Positions 7,821 to 26,380 of a DNA stretch of 36,610 nt are shown here, one piece after another (position 1 is the first letter of the stretch; every line of letters starts with the position of its first letter). The position numbers and the translations under genes were made by a program. The notes beneath the pieces were generated by a model, which saw nothing but the letters and a program-made list of their open reading frames with translations, searched no databases and had not been told where the DNA came from. This stretch comes from a virus (lineage: Duplodnaviria; Heunggongvirae; Uroviricota; Caudoviricetes). The stretch lies in IMG/VR virus record IMGVR_UViG_2541047898_000006, one strand, 5' to 3'.

Positions 7821-7993
7821 ATGGATCTTCCCAGTAGTTTTTCGAAACTGAAAACAACCGAGTGAAAGTTACGACACTTGAGATTTTCACTTGGGTTATA
7901 ATCAGAATACTTGTTTTCGTCCACAAATGTACATGCCATGCATTAATGTGGTGATAGCTTTCAATTTTTACTAAATGGTTTCAATTGCTTCTT

Positions 7994-8539
7994 ATGAATC
8001 ATGTAATGTTAGATATAGAAACATTGGATGTTGAAAAAACAGCTTATATCCTTTCAGTTGGTGCGGCTTTTTTCGTGCCGGAGACTGGCGAGATTGGTCC
8101 GGGTTTCTATCAAGTTATTTCGCTTGATCATGAACAAGCAGGCAGAACCATTGCCCCCTCTACTGTAAAGTGGTGGATGAATCAAAGTACTGAAGCTAAA
8201 AACGAAAATTTTGATGGCACTAAGGACCTTTTAGAGGTTCTGAATGAATTTGTGGCATTTATTCATCATAATCGTACTGGCCGAGTAAAAGTGTGGGGAA
8301 ACGGGAAAGAGTTTGACTGCACGATCATGCATCATGCCCTGTTACAGGCGGGTCTGGATTGCCCATGGTCATTCAGAGATACTCTTGACGTTAGAACCAT
8401 CTTAGCACTTGGTGAAAGCAAAGGAATTTTTTCTCATGCTGATAAAAATTTCACTGGCATTAGGCACACAGCATTCGATGATGTTTTATTTCAGATCGCA
8501 CAGGTTTCTCACATCTATATGAATTTAAATAAAAAATAA
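7994..8539 (+). CDS. DEDDh-type 3'-5' exonuclease (DnaQ-like)
   Basis: N-terminal DIETLD (Exo I motif) and C-terminal HTAFDD (H-x4-D) motifs. AT-rich. Start ambiguous (TTG 7985, ATG 7994 or ATG 8006). Confidence 0.7.
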   Translation: MNHVMLDIETLDVEKTAYILSVGAAFFVPETGEIGPGFYQVISLDHEQAGRTIAPSTVKWWMNQSTEAKNENFDGTKDLLEVLNEFVAFIHHNRTGRVKVWGNGKEFDCTIMHHALLQAGLDCPWSFRDTLDVRTILALGESKGIFSHADKNFTGIRHTAFDDVLFQIAQVSHIYMNLNKK

Positions 8540-8554
8540 ATATAGGACTTAGCT

Positions 8555-9466
8555 ATGGATTGCTTAGATGTAACCTATTGGACTGAGCTAGATGTTTTCG
8601 CACAGTATCCTGTTGGTGCTCGCTCTAAGGCATTGGTTATTTCCCCTGATGTTGCCCCCCATGGTATCAAAGCATCGTGGCCGTATCTTTTTAAGAGAAG
8701 TATTAAAAAATACCCAGATCAATTTTGGTGTGAGATCGTTGCCTACAGGATTGGATTGCAGCTTGGTTTTAATGTCCCCAAAGCAGTTCCTTCGTTAAAG
8801 ACTAATGATTTGGGGCATACGTTTTGCGGGGCCCTCATTGAGTGGTTTCATCATAAAGATTATGAGAAATTTGCTCCCGCTGGTGATTACTTTGTTCGAA
8901 GAGATCCAAATTTTGATCGTGAGAAAGGAGCTAAGCATTCCATTGAAGGGCTGAGGATTATCGCGAAAGCTCTTAAAGTTGACTATGTTGAGTGGTTGGA
9001 GAATATGGCTCTCTTTGACGCAGTAATAGGTAATACAGATAGACATCAAGAAAACTGGGGGTTTATCTTCTCACCTTTAACCAGCGAGTGTCAGCTTGCA
9101 CCATTTTTCGATAATGGTACGAGCTTATGCTACGAACGTTTTCCGGAACATGTTGCTGATTGGACCGATCATAGACTCAGGGAGCATGTTAGCCGGGGAA
9201 AGCATCATTTGCGTAAGACTCTGGGCAAAGATGAGTATCAGAGATTAGGTCATTTAGAGTTAATCAAAGAACTTTGTGATAAAAAAGAAGAATTAAAACA
9301 GCGGGTAGCTGAAAGACTGGCTCGTTTGAACCATGACTTTTGGGACTCAACTTTTGCGGAGTTGACGGAAATAAACTGCCCTGTTCCGCTGACTAGAGAA
9401 CGTGCTGCATGGATTGTTCGTGTAACAAACATGCGTATTGAACTGATTAAAGGTGTTACTTCATGA
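8555..9466 (+). CDS. HipA-like Ser/Thr kinase core (HipT-like, lacks the HipA N-terminal subdomain)
   Basis: Aligns by eye to E. coli HipA motifs: ATP-binding loop PVGARSKAL (HipA VAGAQEKTA), EIVAYRIGLQLGFNVPKA (HipA LLLAKELGLNVPDA), catalytic loop IGNTDRHQENWGF (HipA IGATDGHAKNFS), Mg-binding LAPFFDNG (HipA LTPFYDII). AGGA SD; 15 nt after the exonuclease stop. Confidence 0.7.
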   Translation: MDCLDVTYWTELDVFAQYPVGARSKALVISPDVAPHGIKASWPYLFKRSIKKYPDQFWCEIVAYRIGLQLGFNVPKAVPSLKTNDLGHTFCGALIEWFHHKDYEKFAPAGDYFVRRDPNFDREKGAKHSIEGLRIIAKALKVDYVEWLENMALFDAVIGNTDRHQENWGFIFSPLTSECQLAPFFDNGTSLCYERFPEHVADWTDHRLREHVSRGKHHLRKTLGKDEYQRLGHLELIKELCDKKEELKQRVAERLARLNHDFWDSTFAELTEINCPVPLTRERAAWIVRVTNMRIELIKGVTS

Positions 9467-10167
9467 CTATCTTAATAGAAAAAATTCCCATGCCAAGTAG
9501 GCTCTTACTGACATGGCAACCGACCGACGGCGGCTCTCGCTATGTCGTTGGTGAACTTCTTCAAGATGAGTCTGAAGGCTACGAGTTTAATTATCTTACG
9601 GATAGCAAAGATTTTGCTAAAGCTGTGGATAAAGGCTTTCACGGTTTTCCTGCTTTTGACATAAAAGTTACGACTCATCGCAAAGACGTTATGCAAACCT
9701 TTTCAAGAAGGTTACCCTCTAGGAAAAGAGAAGATTTTGCCGATTACTTGCTGACGTTTCGTCTTCCTGCTGATTTTAGAGAGAATGACTTCGTTTTGCT
9801 CGCTTGTACTGGCGGAAAAGTGGCTAGTGATGGTTTTTATTTTGTCCCAGACTTGTCTTCTATTCGGCCACCTTTTGATTATGTCATGGAGGTCGCCGGA
9901 ACGAGACACATGATTAAGGAAGGGCGTCTAGCTCTTGACGAGATATCAATTGGTGATGAAGTCATATTGCGCAATGAAGATACCAATACTGTTGATCCGC
10001 TGGCCATATTAGTAACGAAAAACGACAATCATCTAGGATATGTCAACAAGGCATTGTGCGCCGCATTACGAGATCTTGGTAAAAACCATGATATCAGTGG
10101 AGTGGTCGTACGTAAAAATGGCTCTTCGGATAGGCCTTTGATTTATGCAAAAGTATCTGTTAGATGA
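9463..10167 (+). CDS. Two-domain protein: HipA N-terminal-like (HipS-like) domain fused to a C-terminal HIRAN domain
   Basis: Start overlaps the kinase stop (ATGA). N-terminus LLLTWQPTDGGSRYVVGELLQDESEGYEFNY and FSRRLPSRKRED parallel the HipA N-terminus (LVTWMNNQRVGELTKLANGAHTFKY; FDNLLPDSPIVRDR). C-terminus GDEVILRNEDTNTVDPLAILV...LGYVNKALCAALRDLG...GVVV matches the HIRAN pattern (E-V-L-R-x-P-x-N-x-x-D-x-N-A-I-x-V ... G-[YH]-[VL]-x-K-x-L-A-x-x-L). Confidence 0.55.
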   Translation: MTILIEKIPMPSRLLLTWQPTDGGSRYVVGELLQDESEGYEFNYLTDSKDFAKAVDKGFHGFPAFDIKVTTHRKDVMQTFSRRLPSRKREDFADYLLTFRLPADFRENDFVLLACTGGKVASDGFYFVPDLSSIRPPFDYVMEVAGTRHMIKEGRLALDEISIGDEVILRNEDTNTVDPLAILVTKNDNHLGYVNKALCAALRDLGKNHDISGVVVRKNGSSDRPLIYAKVSVR

Positions 10168-10475
10168 TGCATGTTTATTCATGCTTGCTAGTGATGCTGC
10201 ATTTATAGAGTCTGTCAACTATGGAGATTTTTTCGTCTCATGCAACTACATTAAATTACCATTAAGTGGGTTGACGTTGCGGGGGAAGCATTACACGTCA
10301 GTATTGGTGCGTCTGAAGTGTCATGCCGAAAAGGTATGAAAAAGCCGCTTGGTAACATAACTATTCGCAATGATGTTGTAGGAAGCGAACTGGAAATGAT
10401 AGCAATGGATGCTGTTGATGTAGTGTATGTCTATGCTGCATGAGTTTGCATGAACGTTTGAGGCTCGTTTTTGTT

Positions 10476-10502
10476 AAGGCCCGCCAGAACTGGCGGGCTT
10501 TT
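10476..10502 (+). terminator. Rho-independent terminator ending the cargo operon
   Basis: GC-rich hairpin GCCCGCCAG / CTGGCGGGC followed by TTTT on the plus strand. Confidence 0.6.
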
Positions 10503-10547
10503 GCTCATGTCATGCAGGTGCATGAAAACCACTTCATAAAGCGGGCA

Positions 10548-10566
10548 GGCGTGGCGGGGATACGAG
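10548..10566. other. Putative cos (cohesive end) site GGCGTGGCGGGGATACGAG
   Basis: The first 13 nt match what I recall as the conserved start of P2/186 cohesive ends (GGCG[A/T]GGCGGGGAAAGCA.). It lies between the hotspot operon and the portal gene and is flanked by GGGGATACG direct repeats (10556..10564 and 10578..10586). Confidence 0.4.
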
Positions 10567-10653
10567 CGCGCGCTGATGGGGATACGGTGTTTTTAGTAAG
10601 GTTATGAGGTAGAATTTGACGCGGTTTTTTTAAGCATATTGAGGTGTAAATAG

Positions 10654-11199
10654 ATGGATGCTATTACTGGATTATTGGATTTTTTTAGAAAGATTCCAAC
10701 GGCACTTCTTGTAGCTATTACATGTGGTTTAAGTTTGATCCTTTTTTTGCCAGAATCTTTAGCTTCTAAAGTTGCGGTTGATGGTTTCCGTAAAGAATAT
10801 AGAAATTTCATAGGACCAGCATTTTTACTGGCTGTCTCTTTTTTAGTTGCAAGAGTATATCAGTTTTTTCATGACCTATATGGCGATAGACAAAGGCACA
10901 AAGTACGTATCTCTTATTTGGAGAAGCTAACTCCTGAGGAGAAGGGATACCTCTGGTCTTATATAATTGATGGCGAAAACTCACTAATGTGTGGTCCTGA
11001 AGATGGTGTTATGGGGGGGTTGGTTGCTAAGCGCATAACCTATAGAGCTGCAAACGTGGGCAGTATGATTGACGGATTCGCTTTCAATTTGCAGCCGTGG
11101 GCTCGCGAGCATTTACAGAACAACACTCATTTATTAGAAGGAGCGGTCGGTAGGGCAATGACACCGGGTGAGAAACTAGGATTCAGGCGTAGATTTTAA
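10654..11199 (+). CDS. Membrane protein (two N-terminal TM helices plus cytoplasmic domain); possible superinfection-exclusion-type cargo
   Basis: 181-aa ORF with GAGGTG SD. Hydrophobic segments TALLVAITCGLSLILFL and GPAFLLAVSFLVARVY. Sits between the putative cos and the portal stop, where P2 has only about 100 bp. Confidence 0.55.
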   Translation: MDAITGLLDFFRKIPTALLVAITCGLSLILFLPESLASKVAVDGFRKEYRNFIGPAFLLAVSFLVARVYQFFHDLYGDRQRHKVRISYLEKLTPEEKGYLWSYIIDGENSLMCGPEDGVMGGLVAKRITYRAANVGSMIDGFAFNLQPWAREHLQNNTHLLEGAVGRAMTPGEKLGFRRRF

Positions 11200-19161: not shown

Positions 19162-19555
19162 AGCGGTGCCTTATGTCCGCAATAACCCGGACAAACTGCA
19201 TCTGTTTGTGGATAACGGTTCGCTGGTTGCCACGGGGGCCAGCTCCATGTCGTGGGAGTACCGTTACACCCTGAACGCGGTGATTGAGGATTTCAGCGGC
19301 GACCAGAATCTGCTGATGGCCCCGGTTTTGCTGTGGCTGAGGGATAACCAGCCCGATGCCATCAATAACCCGGCGTTACGGGAAAAACTATTCACCTTTG
19401 AGGTGGATATTCTGCGCAACGATGTCTGTGATATCAGCTTGAACCTGCAACTGACGGAACGTGTGCTGGTCAGCACTGACGGCAGTGTGTCGAGCGTTGA
19501 GGCTGTAGCGGAACCCGATGAATCTGAAGAAATGTGGACGGTGAAACGTGGCTGA
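19124..19555 (+). CDS. R: Tail completion protein R (gpR)
   Basis: Likely GTG start at 19124 with AGGAG 7 nt upstream; synteny with P2 R. Confidence 0.8.
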   Translation: MNKPQSLRHALNKAVPYVRNNPDKLHLFVDNGSLVATGASSMSWEYRYTLNAVIEDFSGDQNLLMAPVLLWLRDNQPDAINNPALREKLFTFEVDILRNDVCDISLNLQLTERVLVSTDGSVSSVEAVAEPDESEEMWTVKRG

Positions 19556-19997
19556 ACTGCAGAAAGTGGACGACTGGCTGAGTGCTTTGTTGGCGAATCT
19601 GGAACCAGCCGCCAGAAGCCGCATGATGCGCCAGCTGGCGCAGGAACTGCGCCGGACACAGCAGCAGAATATCAGGATGCAGCGCAACCCTGACGGCAGC
19701 AGCTATGAACCGCGACGGGTAACAGCACGCAGTAAAAAGGGGCGTATCAAACGTCAGATGTTTGCAAAGCTGCGCACCACAAAATATCTGAAAACTGCAG
19801 CCAGCGCCGATTCTGCCAGCGTACAGTTTGAAGGTAAGGTGCAGCGCATTGCCCGCGTTCATCACTACGGCCTGCGCGATCGTGTCAGTCGTAAGGGACC
19901 GAAGGTCCGTTACGCAGAGCGTCGCCTGCTGGGTGTAAATGATGATGTTGAAGCAAATATTCGTGATATTTTGCTACGTTGGCTAAGCCAATATTAA
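19548..19997 (+). CDS. S: Tail completion protein S (gpS)
   Basis: 149 aa, overlapping R; size and synteny as P2 gpS. Confidence 0.85.
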   Translation: MAELQKVDDWLSALLANLEPAARSRMMRQLAQELRRTQQQNIRMQRNPDGSSYEPRRVTARSKKGRIKRQMFAKLRTTKYLKTAASADSASVQFEGKVQRIARVHHYGLRDRVSRKGPKVRYAERRLLGVNDDVEANIRDILLRWLSQY

Positions 19998-19998
19998 T

Positions 19999-20694
19999 TC
20001 ATGTCAAATATTGATAACTTTTATCAATTTCAAGTTTGTGAAATTTGGTTATCTTTGAATCAATGTATAAATCTATGAACATTGCTATCCCTATCATAAA
20101 TATAAATAGAATGCTTAAATAAATAATGGGGGTGGCAATCATAATTGTAAATTTGTTCTTGTCTGTCGTTTTTGCTAACTCTTCTTTCTTTTCAGGAATT
20201 AGCAAGTAGCTACAAATGAAATCTTTTGTGGCTTGTTGGATTGAAGTGATCTTATCAAGCTGTGACTTGTCAACACATACATCTGGTGTGATATTCCATT
20301 CAGGTGTGTATGGTATGTTTTGTGCGTGTTCTGGTTTCATCCAAAAGGAATCTTTTGTTTCTCTATGTGTGATTTCAATCCAATTTACGGGTTCTTTGGC
20401 GATGAAATAGGTAAATTTATAAAAACAAAGTGCTGAGGTCATAATGACTGCAATTCCAAATGAGACGATAAATATTTTATGTTTTTTAATATGGGGTTTT
20501 GTGCTTAACTTATATTTGCAAAGACTAAGTCTAATAATTGGCTTTGATATTCCAATCTTTGATATCAAAAAGTCTTCTTCTGGATAGGATGTGTTTAACC
20601 ATGACCAAAAAGCCGAGATGCCACCTATAAGCCATTTAAATATAAGACCACCAATGGCCGTAGCTAAAAATGTATTTATTTTATCAATTTCCAT
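19999..20694 (-). CDS. AT-rich membrane protein of unknown function (cargo in the S-V slot)
   Basis: 231-aa minus-strand ORF inside the otherwise plus-strand late region. GGGGA SD 5 nt upstream. Three hydrophobic helices, at the N-terminus, near residue 80 and near the C-terminus. Visibly lower GC than neighbours. Confidence 0.65.
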   Translation of the reverse strand: MEIDKINTFLATAIGGLIFKWLIGGISAFWSWLNTSYPEEDFLISKIGISKPIIRLSLCKYKLSTKPHIKKHKIFIVSFGIAVIMTSALCFYKFTYFIAKEPVNWIEITHRETKDSFWMKPEHAQNIPYTPEWNITPDVCVDKSQLDKITSIQQATKDFICSYLLIPEKKEELAKTTDKNKFTIMIATPIIYLSILFIFMIGIAMFIDLYIDSKITKFHKLEIDKSYQYLT

Positions 20695-20730
20695 ATAGAT
20701 CCCCTTTGGGTTGAGCTATCTGGGATTATA

Positions 20731-20748
20731 TGTATGAGAGACAGAACA
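20731..20748 (+). promoter_or_regulatory. TGT-N12-ACA dyad, candidate late promoter element upstream of V
   Basis: TGTatgagagacagaACA in the S-V intergenic region; it sits closer to the V start codon than expected for a -55 site. Confidence 0.3.
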
Positions 20749-20794
20749 ATGAAGCGAGGTTCGTTAAAATAGGAATCACGGGCATTCTTTCTTC

Positions 20795-21373
20795 ATGAAC
20801 GCACAATTAACCGAAATCATGCGCCTTATCACCAACCTGATCCGCACTGGTGTAGTCACCGAAGTGGACCGGGAAAACTGGCTTTGCCGGGTGAAAACGG
20901 GCGACCTTGAAACCAACTGGATTAACTGGCTGACGCTGCGCGCGGGAAATGCCCGCACATGGTGGAAACCATCGGAAGGTGAGCAGGTGGTGCTGCTGAG
21001 TCTGGGCGGTAATCTGGAAACCGCCTTTGCGCTGCCCGCTGTCTATTCGAATCAGTTCGCGCCACCGTCGACGTCGGCAGACGCCTGCGTGACAGAACAT
21101 CCTGACGGCGGCTGGTTTGAATACGAACCCGCCACCGGGCGCTGGTATGTCAGGGGCATCAAATCAATGGTCATTGAGGCCGCTGACAACATCACCATGA
21201 AAACCAGTGAGTTTGTGCTGGAGGCTGACCGCACGCGTATTAACAGCGAAGTGGTGATCAATGGTGGCGTTACCCAGGGCGGCGGTGCAATGAGTTCCAG
21301 GGGGATCGTGGTTGATGCGCATCAGCATACTGGCGTCCTGAAAGGCGGCGATACAACCGGAGGCCCGGTATGA
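20795..21373 (+). CDS. V: Baseplate assembly protein V (spike)
   Basis: 192 aa; N-terminal region parallels P2 gpV (…RTGVVTEVD…CRVKTGDLETNWINWL…RTWWKPSEGEQVVLL…). Confidence 0.88.
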   Translation: MNAQLTEIMRLITNLIRTGVVTEVDRENWLCRVKTGDLETNWINWLTLRAGNARTWWKPSEGEQVVLLSLGGNLETAFALPAVYSNQFAPPSTSADACVTEHPDGGWFEYEPATGRWYVRGIKSMVIEAADNITMKTSEFVLEADRTRINSEVVINGGVTQGGGAMSSRGIVVDAHQHTGVLKGGDTTGGPV

Positions 21374-25242: not shown

Positions 25243-25369
25243 CTGAGAATTAAATGGTTAGTATCATCCTCCCCCACACTGCCTATATGGTATGAATACG
25301 AGGGGGAGGCTGTTTGTTGTCTGTTTCTGTGATAATATTAGATTCTCGTTTTTTAATAAAAAAATCAAT

Positions 25370-26380
25370 ATGAAAGAGAATAAAATACGTTCTGCCGATG
25401 GCGTGAGAGGTTTCGCTTTGATGATTGTTGTGGTGATGCATGCTACGGGACTATTCTTTCCCTCACTTCATGATCATCTCGGAGGTACGGGGCAGCCCGG
25501 TGTTTGGTTGTTTTTTGTTCTTAGCGCCTTTTTGTTGACACATAAATTTATTAATTCTGGTTTTTCGTTTTTGAATGTGTTGAGTTATCTTTTAGGGCGA
25601 ACAATAAGGATATTACCGATTTTTTATATTGCAGTATTAATTTATTACCTTATGGGATTTTATGATTTAGAGAAAATGAAATCGATAATTTCATTTGATA
25701 GTACTTACATCCATCTCTGGACTATTCCGATAGAATTCAAGTTTTACTTTTTGTTGCCGATTGTGGTTTATCTCGCATCTAGTATCCAGAAAGTTGCAGG
25801 TAGAAAATATTCTTTGTTATTTTTGATATTGTTAACCTTAGCGTTCGCTTTTATATACCCTTATACGGATGACGAAATCAACGGTAGGCTACCGTATTAC
25901 ATTCCTGTTTTTATGTATGGAATTATAATTGCGTTTATGTATAACTATTTTCAAATTAAAATATCATCTCTCGTTAGTGATGGGGTGTCAATTGCGATTA
26001 TATTAATATTTATAATGTTGACCCCTCCTTTTCAGGGGGCTAATGGTTGGTTGGGTAATAAATTTGTGGTATTAGGGCCATTTATTGCTCTCTTTGTATA
26101 TCTGCAAGTAAATTCCAGTGGGTATGTAAGCGCGGTTTTATCTTCAAAAATCATGGCGGATTTGGGGAAATATAGTTTTTCAATTTATTTGTTTCATATA
26201 ATGATAATTTTTATTGTTTATCCTAAATTTTTGGATAATGTTACTGCATACTTAGTTACTATAGCTTTATGTATTGGCGGTGGGGCTATTGCCTATCATT
26301 GCATTGAATCTCCCTTGGAATCGTTCAGACATAAGCTTATGAAAAGAATAACGCAGGCTTATCAGAATCAAAATATTTAA
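25370..26380 (+). CDS. Acyltransferase-3 family integral membrane protein (probable O-antigen/LPS O-acetyltransferase, lysogenic conversion cargo)
   Basis: Start at internal ATG 25370 (MKENKIRSADGVRGFALMIVVVMHA: R-x10-H motif of the acyltransferase-3 family). Roughly 10 hydrophobic helices. Strongly AT-rich. Sits in the G-FI slot where P2 carries Z/fun. Confidence 0.8.
   Translation: MKENKIRSADGVRGFALMIVVVMHATGLFFPSLHDHLGGTGQPGVWLFFVLSAFLLTHKFINSGFSFLNVLSYLLGRTIRILPIFYIAVLIYYLMGFYDLEKMKSIISFDSTYIHLWTIPIEFKFYFLLPIVVYLASSIQKVAGRKYSLLFLILLTLAFAFIYPYTDDEINGRLPYYIPVFMYGIIIAFMYNYFQIKISSLVSDGVSIAIILIFIMLTPPFQGANGWLGNKFVVLGPFIALFVYLQVNSSGYVSAVLSSKIMADLGKYSFSIYLFHIMIIFIVYPKFLDNVTAYLVTIALCIGGGAIAYHCIESPLESFRHKLMKRITQAYQNQNI

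What the first reader, a model, noticed from the sequence alone, without database searches (positions are those of the whole stretch)
19999..20694. AT-rich, opposite-strand membrane protein inserted between tail genes S and V
A 231-aa ORF with three predicted TM helices and a good SD is transcribed against the late operon and is clearly more AT-rich than its neighbours, which marks it as horizontally acquired cargo. Function is unknown; membrane proteins at this position in P2-like phages are plausible exclusion or abortive-infection factors.
Basis: partly seen in the sequence, partly recalled or inferred. Interest (0 to 1): 0.5.

Follow-up and report, generated by a model that had tools for sequence, protein, structure and literature searches.

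The report
Unstudied membrane-protein cargo in P2-like prophage
A real but never-studied three-pass membrane protein gene (Pfam DUF6216) sits in the known variable "orf30" gap between two tail operons of a P2-like E. coli prophage; close relatives carry known anti-phage systems at that spot, so it is a reasonable but untested candidate for a prophage-encoded phage-exclusion protein.

Summary
Window 19999..20694 (-) is a 231-aa ORF at 31.6% GC between gpS (54%) and gpV (57%), with a Shine-Dalgarno sequence and three hydrophobic helices. It is a real gene: it passes the Pfam DUF6216 threshold, has about 45 relatives at 50%-identity clustering, and shows dN/dS of 0.07-0.33.

It occupies the classical "orf30" variable locus of P2-like phages, the gap between the late O and V operons. 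The closest phages have only 68 bp there. Others carry PARIS (AriA/AriB), a TIR protein, an FRG protein (PADLOC candidate PDC-S15), a second DUF6216 subfamily (E. coli B, REL606, BL21-AI) or unrelated ORFs.

The 231-aa subfamily sits at this site, antisense and about 100 bp from V, in every P2-like prophage locus recovered, even at 31-42% identity. Distant members lie next to BREX/AbiE, Mrr/MmeI/SymE, a methyltransferase and Fic genes. The inferred topology is N-out/C-in, with an ~83-residue periplasmic domain that has exactly two Cys in 35/35 sequences. P2 Orf30 has the same layout and is possibly a remote homologue (hhalign 47.5%).

Function is untested. My best guess is a lysogen-expressed inner-membrane exclusion protein (about 0.4). 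No known Sie, Abi or PADLOC family matches. This is modestly interesting: a candidate, not a discovery.

The parts
19999..20694 (-). CDS of the 231-aa DUF6216-family membrane protein (stop codon at 19999-20001)
   Evidence: ORF list; Pfam PF19723 E 2.4e-11, 43.8 bits vs cutoff 27.3; annotated 'DUF6216 family protein' in five E. coli genomes at 98.7-99.7% identity; dN/dS 0.07-0.33
20599..20673 (-). TM1 (about residues 8-32). With the N-terminus it is the best-conserved part of the P2-linked subfamily (mean pairwise identity 0.85) and contains small-xxx-small motifs (AIGGLIF, GGIS)
   Evidence: Hydropathy; AF2 helix 3-34; alignment A1; regional identity
20479..20598 (-). Cytoplasmic loop (about residues 33-72), rich in Lys/Arg, with two short predicted helices
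   Evidence: 9 K+R against 3 D+E in the window protein; net positive in 34/35 family members; AF2 helices 38-47 and 51-56
20401..20478 (-). TM2 (about residues 73-98), the most variable segment (identity 0.52)
20152..20400 (-). Predicted periplasmic alpha/beta domain (about residues 99-181) with family-invariant W133, C140 and C161 (a putative disulfide)
   Evidence: Invariant columns in the 35-sequence family alignment; exactly two Cys in this domain in 35/35 sequences and net charge near zero; three strands plus short helices in AF2
20002..20151 (-). TM3 (residues 182-210) continuing into a basic cytoplasmic C-terminal helix that ends in the conserved SYQYLT motif
20701..20706 (-). Shine-Dalgarno sequence AAGGGG, 6 nt upstream of the ATG
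   Evidence: Read directly from the sequence; a purine-rich GGA/GAGG block is conserved at this place in the other loci
20725..20753 (-). Putative sigma-70 promoter of the cargo gene: -35 TTCATT (20753-20748), 17-nt spacer, -10 TATAAT (20730-20725), about 33 nt upstream of the ATG. INFERRED and weak
   Evidence: Read. A -10-like hexamer (TATAAT, TATACT or AATACT) is kept at this position in 13 loci. The automatic scan missed it because the -35 matches only 3 of 6. Caveat: TTCATT-TGT also precedes the activator box upstream of P2 orf30, so its conservation may belong to the V promoter
20731..20748 (+). TGT-N12-ACA box, the P2-type late (Ogr) activator site of the V-operon promoter. It forms the spacer of the putative leftward promoter
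   Evidence: Sequence; conserved across loci; P2 annotates the equivalent 'activator binding site; activation of pV promoter' between orf30 and V
19548..19997 (+). gpS tail-completion gene and left border of the locus. Its last ~13 codons differ from the empty-site relative and are AT-richer; its stop codon lies 1 nt from the cargo gene's stop, with no recognisable terminator between them
20795..21373 (+). gpV baseplate spike gene, right border and first gene of the V operon

Best explanation
SHOWN: this is a functional gene for a small three-pass inner-membrane protein of the uncharacterised family DUF6216. It sits as single-gene, antisense, AT-rich cargo in the 'orf30' gap between the late O operon (ending in S) and the V operon of a P2-like (Peduoviridae) E. 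coli prophage. That gap is a cargo hotspot which in close relatives is empty or holds known or candidate anti-phage systems.

INFERRED topology: N-terminus out, a basic loop in the cytoplasm, an ~83-residue periplasmic alpha/beta domain locked by a conserved Cys140-Cys161 disulfide with invariant Trp133, and a basic C-terminal helix in the cytoplasm.

INFERRED function (my commitment): the gene is transcribed in the lysogen from its own weak sigma-70 promoter, which straddles the Ogr box. During late lytic growth that promoter would be occluded or opposed by antisense transcription. The protein acts at the envelope as a superinfection-exclusion factor. Its periplasmic domain would meet an incoming phage's tail-tip, tape-measure or ejection proteins, or the host inner-membrane protein they use, and block genome passage across the inner membrane. 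This is the way the three-TM inner-membrane protein SieA of P22 works. The conserved TM1 and cytoplasmic parts would mediate oligomerisation or docking to a host membrane partner.
For: Real gene and family.

Hotspot: the junction is empty in phage 500465-1 and Klebsiella phage 4LV2017. PARIS AriA/AriB occupies the same site in vB_EcoM-813R9. A TIR protein, an FRG/PDC-S15 protein, a second DUF6216 type and other ORFs occupy it in E. coli prophages. In a spread sample of 48 junctions, about 29 were empty and about 19 occupied. The literature names orf30 as one of three variable regions.

Fixed association with the site: in every P2-like prophage locus recovered, the 231-aa subfamily lies antisense between S and V, 100-101 bp from the V start in most and 96-111 bp in all. 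This holds at 31-62% protein identity while S and V stay at 64-93%, so the gene evolves fast and is swapped as alleles.

Retention after prophage decay: in the Enterobacter cloacae complex the ORF is intact next to ybjL, with only a ~40-nt relic of the V 5' end upstream. It is still under purifying selection (dN/dS 0.06-0.10 against the prophage copies).

Defence neighbourhoods of distant members: AbiEi/AbiEii with BREX PglZ/BrxL; Mrr_cat, MmeI-type RM, T5orf172 and SymE; an N6 methyltransferase; Fic.

Topology: the first loop is net +4.8, the tail net +2.9, and the central domain is neutral with exactly 2 Cys in 35/35 sequences; the AF2 model has pLDDT 82.7.

Analogue: P22 SieA is a 162/164-aa inner-membrane protein predicted to have three TM domains. 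[quoted passage not shown]

Against: The promoter is read by eye and its -35 is poor. Its conservation may reflect the overlapping V promoter.

E. coli B, REL606 and BL21-AI carry the other DUF6216 subfamily at this site. From general knowledge, E. coli B is the classical permissive host for T1-T7, so any protection from that allele is not broad, or the allele is silent.

Neither allele occurs in 50,697 deposited phage genomes.

Within the subfamily the cytoplasm-facing parts are more conserved than the periplasmic domain. That fits, but does not prove, a variable phage-facing surface.
Confidence: 0.4

Rival explanations
1. Abortive-infection membrane effector. The protein senses infection, for example envelope perturbation through its periplasmic domain, and oligomerises through TM1 to depolarise or permeabilise the inner membrane. 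The infected lysogen dies before the invader replicates (RexB-like or holin-like logic in a single gene).
For: The defence context is the same as for the best explanation. TM1 is highly conserved and carries GxxxG-like motifs that favour helix packing. The same hotspot carries PARIS, which the literature describes as an abortive-infection system.
Against: There is no partner sensor gene and no recognisable pore, effector or enzymatic domain. The gene is stably kept, even as the only survivor of a decayed prophage, which argues against appreciable toxicity. No RexB, AbiZ or other Abi family was hit.
Confidence: 0.2
2. Lysogenic-conversion or host-fitness factor unrelated to phage defence. Possibilities are an orphan immunity protein against a membrane- or periplasm-acting bacteriocin, tailocin or T6SS effector, or an envelope-stress or surface-modification accessory.
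For: It is an inner-membrane protein with a small disulfide-bonded periplasmic domain. From general knowledge, this is an architecture also seen in immunity proteins against pore-forming colicins and periplasmic effectors. One distant member lies next to a PAAR-motif gene, though divergently transcribed. The gene is retained in Enterobacter after prophage loss, so it benefits the host. The same prophage carries a surface-modifying acyltransferase in another cargo slot.
Against: No toxin or effector gene accompanies it in the P2 context. The PAAR gene in L033 already has its own small downstream ORF. Known occupants of the S-V slot are anti-phage systems. No immunity-protein family matched.
Confidence: 0.2
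3. An accessory of the phage's own life cycle, for example modulation of lysis timing, of its own DNA entry or exit, or of tail assembly at the membrane.
For: The position and spacing relative to the V promoter are constant (100-101 bp in most loci, 96-111 bp in all) across divergent P2-like phages. The possible relationship with P2 Orf30 suggests a long shared history with this phage group.
Against: The closest phage relatives lack any gene there and are deposited as phage genomes. P2 orf30 is annotated as nonessential. The gene is antisense to the late operons and is replaceable by PARIS, TIR or FRG genes. Family members also occur outside phages in defence islands.
Confidence: 0.07
4. Not a functional gene: a chance or decaying ORF in AT-rich junk.
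For: None beyond the absence of functional data.
Against: The Pfam hit is above threshold. Length is conserved at 231 aa without indels across homologues down to 45% identity. dN/dS is 0.07-0.33. The Shine-Dalgarno sequence is conserved.
Confidence: 0.01

Closest known systems
Pfam DUF6216 (PF19723), including the 268-aa allele of E. coli B / REL606 / BL21-AI (WP_000115390.1)
   Same: The window protein passes the family threshold. It shares the three-TM layout, invariant W133 and the Cys pair. The E. coli B allele occupies the same S-V slot on the same strand.
   Different: The window protein matches only profile positions 94-251 of 270. It is 24% identical to the E. coli B allele and belongs to a distinct 231-aa subfamily seen so far only in Enterobacterales. 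The family has no known function.
Bacteriophage P2 Orf30 (NP_046770.1), the nonessential AT-rich ORF between S and V
   Same: Same locus, same antisense orientation and similar GC (0.34), lying between the O-operon terminator and the pV activator site. It has the same predicted layout: TM1, cytoplasmic helices, TM2, a small beta-sheet, two helices each bearing one Cys, then a long helix formed by TM3 and a basic tail. The profile-profile alignment covers 111 columns with both Cys aligned.
   Different: There is no pairwise sequence similarity (BLASTP E 1.4). hhalign probability is only 47.5%. Orf30 does not hit the DUF6216 HMM and has a longer cytoplasmic loop. Homology is therefore possible but not shown. 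Orf30's function is also unknown.
P22 SieA superinfection-exclusion protein (PMC10883804)
   Same: Both are small prophage-borne single-gene proteins predicted to have three TM domains. [quoted passage not shown] This is the working model for how the window protein may act.
   Different: No sequence or fold relationship was detected. SieA is 162/164 aa, against 231 aa for the window protein, whose central extracytoplasmic domain of about 83 residues carries a Cys pair. SieA's function (a block of DNA injection, with escape mutations in ejection proteins gp16 and gp20) is demonstrated, whereas nothing is demonstrated here.
Defence hotspots of P2-like phages: old/tin (TO region) and Z/fun (Rousset 2022 PMC9122126; Vassallo 2022 PMC9519451; iLund4u preprint 10.1101/2024.10.15.618418)
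   Same: A small locus between conserved phage genes with high cargo turnover and AT-rich genes, including bona fide systems (PARIS).
   Different: Those papers describe the gpA-portal hotspot, the Z/fun hotspot and a tail-cI hotspot. The passages I retrieved by term search do not treat the S-V (orf30) gap as a defence hotspot; I did not read the papers in full. Cargo here is mostly a single gene, and about 60% of the sampled junctions are empty.
SNIPE, a membrane-anchored nuclease that cleaves phage DNA during injection (PMC13190303)
   Same: It establishes the idea of an inner-membrane defence that acts at the site of genome entry.
   Different: [quoted passage not shown] The window protein has no enzymatic domain at all.

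Membership tests
Pfam DUF6216 (PF19723) | HMM score above the curated gathering threshold | tested here: met
   43.8 bits against a 27.3 cutoff, E 2.4e-11, residues 40-203 to profile positions 94-251 of 270. RefSeq names the identical gene 'DUF6216 family protein'.
Pfam DUF6216 (PF19723) | Shared architecture: about 225-270 aa, three TM helices, a central domain with invariant Trp and two Cys, and a basic C-terminal helix often ending in YLT | tested here: met
   Family alignment A3: W133, C140 and C161 are invariant, and there are exactly two Cys in the central domain in 35/35 sequences. Hydropathy and the AF2 model agree.
P2 Orf30 family | Detectable sequence homology to P2 Orf30 | tested here: inconclusive
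   BLASTP E 1.4. hhalign of the family profile against the single sequence gives probability 13%. Profile against profile gives probability 47.5%, E 1.9e-4, 111 columns, with both Cys aligned.
P2 Orf30 family | Same genomic slot, orientation and predicted order of secondary-structure elements | tested here: met
   Both lie between S and V on the minus strand, upstream of the pV activator box. TM positions and the Cys pair agree. The AF2 element order matches (the Orf30 model has only pLDDT 72).
Known superinfection-exclusion families (P22 SieA-like, SieB PF14163, T4 Imm and others in Pfam/PHROGs) | Sequence membership in a described Sie family | tested here: not met
   A Pfam scan at E<=1 returned only DUF6216, and PHROGs returned nothing. 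By contrast the window's ORF 10654-11199 does hit SieB.
Known superinfection-exclusion families (functional class) | Expressed from the prophage, located in the inner membrane, blocks DNA entry of a superinfecting phage | not testable with these tools
   Only the predicted topology and a putative promoter are available.
Known or candidate anti-phage systems in PADLOC-DB v2 | HMM match to any component | tested here: not met
   0 families at E<=1 for the window protein, and 0 for the E. coli B allele and P2 Orf30.
Cargo of a phage defence/diversity hotspot (sensu Rousset et al. 2022) | Small locus between two conserved phage genes, with high turnover of unrelated genes that include validated defence systems | tested here: met
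   The S and V anchors are conserved at 90-98% identity while the content varies: empty, DUF6216 (two types), PARIS, TIR, FRG/PDC-S15, and ORFs of 253, 288 and 384 aa.

The most novel reading that the evidence does not exclude
DUF6216 proteins, with P2 Orf30 as a far-diverged member, would be a previously unrecognised family of single-gene, envelope-level anti-phage (superinfection-exclusion) proteins. The S-V 'orf30' gap would be a further defence hotspot of P2-like phages beyond those described in the hotspot papers I consulted. This would give a function to P2 orf30, which is still listed as unknown or hypothetical in the sources I read, and to an unannotated gene in E. coli B, BL21-AI and REL606.
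Probability: 0.3. Interest if true: 0.6.

Novelty: new member of a known kind. Interest (0 to 1): 0.42.

Why it matters
If the protein is an exclusion or defence factor, it adds a new single-gene family that acts at the cell envelope. Few E. coli systems are understood at that stage of infection. It would also show that the orf30 gap of P2-like prophages, present in about 1 in 5 complete E. coli genomes, is another reservoir of anti-phage genes (PARIS, TIR, FRG, DUF6216). A homologue in E. coli B, REL606 and BL21-AI makes the question cheap to test in standard laboratory strains. If the protein has no anti-phage role, it is still a widely conserved prophage membrane protein kept by hosts after prophage decay, but then it is of ordinary interest.

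Tried and rejected
- Searching the cargo gene in 50,697 phage records (megablast and tblastn) and in 72,556 plasmids found nothing, for either DUF6216 allele.
- PADLOC, PHROGs and NCBIfam scans returned nothing meaningful.
- A PDB sequence-profile search returned nothing.
- The automatic promoter/terminator scan gave no site upstream of the gene and no terminator between S and the gene; the counts were no higher than in shuffles.
- Literature searches for DUF6216, PF19723 and the two WP accessions found no study; the single mention of DUF6216 is in an unrelated wastewater paper.
- The search for related loci with the distant-member alignment failed because no stretch was conserved enough. Three distant single proteins had no relatives in IMG/VR, which fits a chromosomal rather than phage location.
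- The unrelated 253-aa S-V cargo protein (L039) showed no relationship to DUF6216 in hhalign (probability 0.2%).
- I considered and rejected a role for the adjacent PAAR gene in L033: it is divergent and has its own downstream small ORF.
- I considered Ogr-dependent activation of the cargo gene and rejected it. The box centre is only about 45 nt from the ATG, which is too close for the -55 geometry of P2 late promoters (inference and the P2 annotation).
Full report
**1. The observation**

The window holds a complete P2-like (Peduoviridae) prophage of E. coli. A near-identical prophage, 97.6% identical over the S-to-V stretch, lies beside ybjL in strain FORC_081.

Its GC content is 0.316, roughly equal at all three codon positions. 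The flanking genes have 0.54 (gpS, 19548-19997) and 0.57 (gpV, 20795-21373). Both flanks were identified with PHROGs.

A Shine-Dalgarno sequence (AAGGGG) lies 6 nt before the ATG. Hydropathy gives three membrane-spanning segments, about residues 8-29, 73-98 and 182-212. An AlphaFold2 model with mean pLDDT 82.7 puts long helices at those places.

The ORF is not a chance frame:
- It passes the curated threshold of Pfam DUF6216.
- It has full-length homologues of exactly 231 aa, without indels, down to 45% identity.
- Pairwise dN/dS among alleles is 0.07-0.33.

**2. What the locus is**

In P2 itself the same gap holds orf30. That gap lies between the terminator of the O operon after S and the Ogr-dependent promoter of the V operon. 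P2 orf30 is a nonessential 261-aa ORF on the minus strand. The P2 literature lists orf30, together with the TO (old/tin) and Z/fun regions, as the three places where P2-like phages carry foreign genes (PMC3091744; another example in PMC6823313).

The closest sequenced phages to this window have only 68 bp between S and V. These are Escherichia phage 500465-1 and Klebsiella phage 4LV2017, at 95-96% identity.

Phage vB_EcoM-813R9, equally close, carries a two-gene cassette there on the minus strand. The cassette matches PARIS AriA and AriB.

This type of S-V region occurs in 1053 of 5426 complete E. coli genomes. In an evenly spaced sample of 48 junctions the contents were as follows:
- about 29 were empty;
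- 1 had the window's gene;
- 7 had a second DUF6216 subfamily (268 aa, 24% identical);
- 2 had a TIR-domain protein;
- 1 had an FRG-domain protein matching the PADLOC candidate system PDC-S15;
- 8 had other unannotated ORFs.

The second DUF6216 subfamily is present in 111 genomes, including E. coli B, REL606 and BL21-AI.

The slot is therefore a genuine cargo hotspot whose identifiable occupants are anti-phage systems. In the hotspot papers I consulted, the passages retrieved by term search describe other P2 hotspots and do not treat this gap as one.

**3. How the gene relates to the slot**

Alignment with the empty-site phage shows where similarity is lost and regained. It is lost within the last ~13 codons of S, which are AT-richer in the window, and it returns at the V start codon. 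The cassette therefore travels with the S 3' end and the V promoter region. I infer that it is exchanged by recombination within the flanking genes.

I collected loci encoding the 231-aa subfamily from GTDB genomes, IMG/VR and metagenomes. In every P2-like prophage locus the gene lies between S and V on the opposite strand. Its start is 100-101 bp from the V start in most loci, and 96-111 bp in all. This holds when the protein is only 31-62% identical to the window's while S and V remain 64-93% identical.

The gene is thus an old, fast-evolving, allelically replaced resident of this slot, not a one-off insertion.

Two derived cases are informative. In Kosakonia the gene survives next to V in a prophage disrupted by IS elements. 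In the Enterobacter cloacae complex it survives intact beside ybjL, with only a ~40-nt relic of the V 5' end and no V start codon upstream. ybjL is also the gene next to which the related prophage sits in E. coli FORC_081. Retention of an intact gene under purifying selection after the phage has decayed suggests that the gene benefits the host.

**4. The protein**

An exhaustive profile search of 1.84 billion cluster representatives found only 45 relatives at E<=0.001. The full-length ones are 225-246 aa. In a 35-sequence family alignment the only invariant residues are W133, C140 and C161, all in the segment between TM2 and TM3.

Charge counts across the family support a consistent topology:
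- The first loop is net +4.8, positive in 34 of 35 sequences.
- The C-terminal tail is net +2.9.
- The short N-terminus is slightly acidic.
- The central ~83-residue domain is neutral and has exactly two Cys in 35 of 35 sequences.

By the positive-inside rule, and because conserved Cys pairs are typical of oxidised compartments (established knowledge), this gives the following topology. The N-terminus is out, the first loop is in, the central domain is periplasmic and disulfide-bonded, and the C-tail is in.

The AF2 model shows, in order: TM1, two short loop helices, TM2, three short strands, short helices bearing the two Cys, and one long helix that forms TM3 plus the tail.

Within the P2-linked subfamily the N-terminus with TM1 is most conserved (mean identity 0.85, with GxxxG-like motifs). 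It is followed by the C-tail (0.75) and the cytoplasmic loop (0.72). The periplasmic domain (0.61) and TM2 (0.52) vary most.

No enzymatic or otherwise known domain, no PDB sequence match and no specific fold neighbour were found.

**5. Relationship to P2 Orf30**

Orf30 shows no pairwise similarity to the window protein. It does have the same layout: TM segments at 4-31, 106-132 and 219-241, two Cys in the central domain, and a basic tail.

A profile-profile comparison of the DUF6216 family with five Orf30 homologues aligns 111 columns, from the periplasmic domain to the tail. Both Cys are in register, with probability 47.5% and E 1.9e-4.

An AF2 model of Orf30 (pLDDT 72) gives the same order of elements: TM2, a small sheet, a helix with Cys1, a helix with Cys2, then a long TM3-tail helix.

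I regard remote homology as somewhat more likely than not, but it is not shown.

**6. Neighbourhoods outside phages**

Distant DUF6216 members are single genes in chromosomal islands. Their neighbours are:
- AbiEi/AbiEii and a BREX cluster (PglZ, BrxL, PLD) in Escherichia whittamii;
- an Mrr-type endonuclease, in some cases also an MmeI-type RM enzyme, a DEAD-box helicase and a T5orf172 protein, with a SymE toxin a few genes away, in four related islands;
- an N6-methyltransferase;
- a Fic protein.

All eight contexts outside intact prophages that I could inspect contain defence, restriction or toxin-antitoxin genes. This count includes the Enterobacter copy, which sits beside a GIY-YIG protein. 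It is suggestive, but it is not a statistical test.

**7. Expression (inferred)**

The 100-nt spacer between the gene and V contains the TGT-N12-ACA late-activator box of the V promoter (window 20731-20748). That box is conserved in all loci and is annotated at the equivalent place in P2.

On the cargo strand a perfect TATAAT (20730-20725) follows the box directly, and TTCATT (20753-20748) precedes it with a 17-nt spacing. A -10-like hexamer is kept at that place in the other alleles.

If this is the promoter, Ogr and RNA polymerase bound at pV would occlude it. Read-through from the O operon would also be antisense to the gene, because no terminator lies between the S stop and the ORF stop, which are 1 nt apart. 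Expression would then be confined to the lysogen.

This inference is weak for three reasons. The -35 is poor, so the automatic scan missed the site. The TTCATT-TGT motif also occurs upstream of P2 orf30, where the geometry cannot give a promoter. There are no transcript data.

**8. Mechanism**

I commit to a lysogen-expressed inner-membrane superinfection-exclusion protein. Its periplasmic domain would interfere with genome delivery across the inner membrane. The functional analogue is P22 SieA, a single prophage gene for an inner-membrane protein predicted to have three TM domains. SieA blocks DNA injection and occurs as very divergent sequence types (PMC10883804).

Several observations fit this model:
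- the hotspot and defence-island contexts;
- single-gene autonomy with no enzymatic domain;
- a structurally fixed but sequence-variable extracytoplasmic domain;
- rapid allelic turnover;
- retention by hosts after prophage decay.

My confidence is about 0.4, and about 0.6 for any anti-phage role. The rivals are an abortive-infection membrane effector (0.2), a non-defence host-fitness or immunity function (0.2), and a role in the phage's own cycle (0.07).

One caution applies. From general knowledge, E. coli B plates T1-T7 well, yet it carries the other subfamily at this site. Any protection from that allele must be narrow, perhaps against other temperate or P2-like phages, or the gene is silent there.

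**9. Novelty and verdict**

The 'cargo' interpretation is confirmed and made more precise. The 'exclusion/abortive-infection' idea is supported by context only.

The object belongs to a catalogued but unstudied Pfam family and sits in a classically known variable locus, so it is not categorically new. Three points appear to be new in the sources I read:
- the S-V gap behaves as a defence hotspot (PARIS, TIR, FRG/PDC-S15);
- DUF6216 is its recurrent occupant in two subfamilies, including in the common laboratory B strains;
- P2 Orf30 may be a far-diverged relative.

I rate interest at about 0.4. This is a well-motivated, cheaply testable candidate rather than a surprise.

Noticed in passing
window 7985-11199: The old/tin (TO) hotspot of this prophage is filled with other AT-rich cargo (GC about 0.41): an Rv2179c-like 3'-5' exoribonuclease (7985-8539), a HipA_C-like kinase (8555-9466) with a HIRAN-domain protein (9463-10167) that together match the PADLOC candidate system PDC-M03A/B, and a SieB-family superinfection-exclusion protein (10654-11199).
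   Followed up: partly
window 25292-26380: The Z/fun hotspot downstream of the tail-fibre assembly gene carries a 362-aa Acyl_transf_3 membrane acyltransferase at GC about 0.38, a likely surface-polysaccharide-modifying lysogenic-conversion gene. All three classical P2 cargo slots of this prophage are therefore occupied.
   Followed up: partly
window 19955-20001: The last ~13 codons of gpS are recoded and AT-richer than in the empty-site phage (NIRDILLRWLSQY against MTRDMILQWLAG). The S stop codon is 1 nt from the stop of the convergent cargo gene, and no terminator is recognisable, unlike P2, where a terminator follows S.
   Followed up: partly
L036 689-1495 (E. coli B); L042 (REL606, ECB_RS04445): E. 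coli B, REL606 and BL21-AI carry a 268-aa DUF6216 protein of a different subfamily (24% identity) in the same S-V slot. Its 3' end overlaps the end of gpS by 59 nt. It occurs in 111 of 5426 complete E. coli genomes.
   Followed up: partly
L001 1921-4024 (phage vB_EcoM-813R9): A PARIS-like AriA/AriB pair (AAA_15/AAA_21 ATPase plus DUF4435) sits in the S-V gap of a cultured P2-like phage that is about 95% identical to the window in the flanks. It is annotated only as 'putative enzyme with ATPase activity' and 'hypothetical protein'.
   Followed up: yes
L004 3855-4696 (Enterobacter cloacae complex, beside ybjL): An intact DUF6216 gene is preceded by a ~40-nt relic of the gpV 5' end with the V start codon destroyed. 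It is flanked by a GIY_YIG_2 protein and an arsRBC operon. This is a fully decayed P2-like prophage beside ybjL, the gene next to which the related prophage sits in E. coli FORC_081, and only the cargo gene was kept.
   Followed up: yes
L037 863-1663; L038 765-1700; L039-L041: Other single-gene occupants of the same slot in E. coli prophages are a 266-aa TIR-domain protein (on the plus strand, unlike the others), a 311-aa FRG protein (PADLOC PDC-S15), and unannotated 253-aa (two N-terminal TM helices), 288-aa and 384-aa proteins, all at GC 0.31-0.37.
   Followed up: partly
L033, L034, L043, L044: A recurring island module, Mrr_cat(DUF8426) - DUF6216 - SAM methyltransferase - 337-aa protein ... 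SymE, is found at the edge of integrative elements (AlpA, DUF4942, CbtA/CbeA, anti-restriction genes). From memory it resembles the E. coli 'immigration control region', but I did not analyse this.
   Followed up: no
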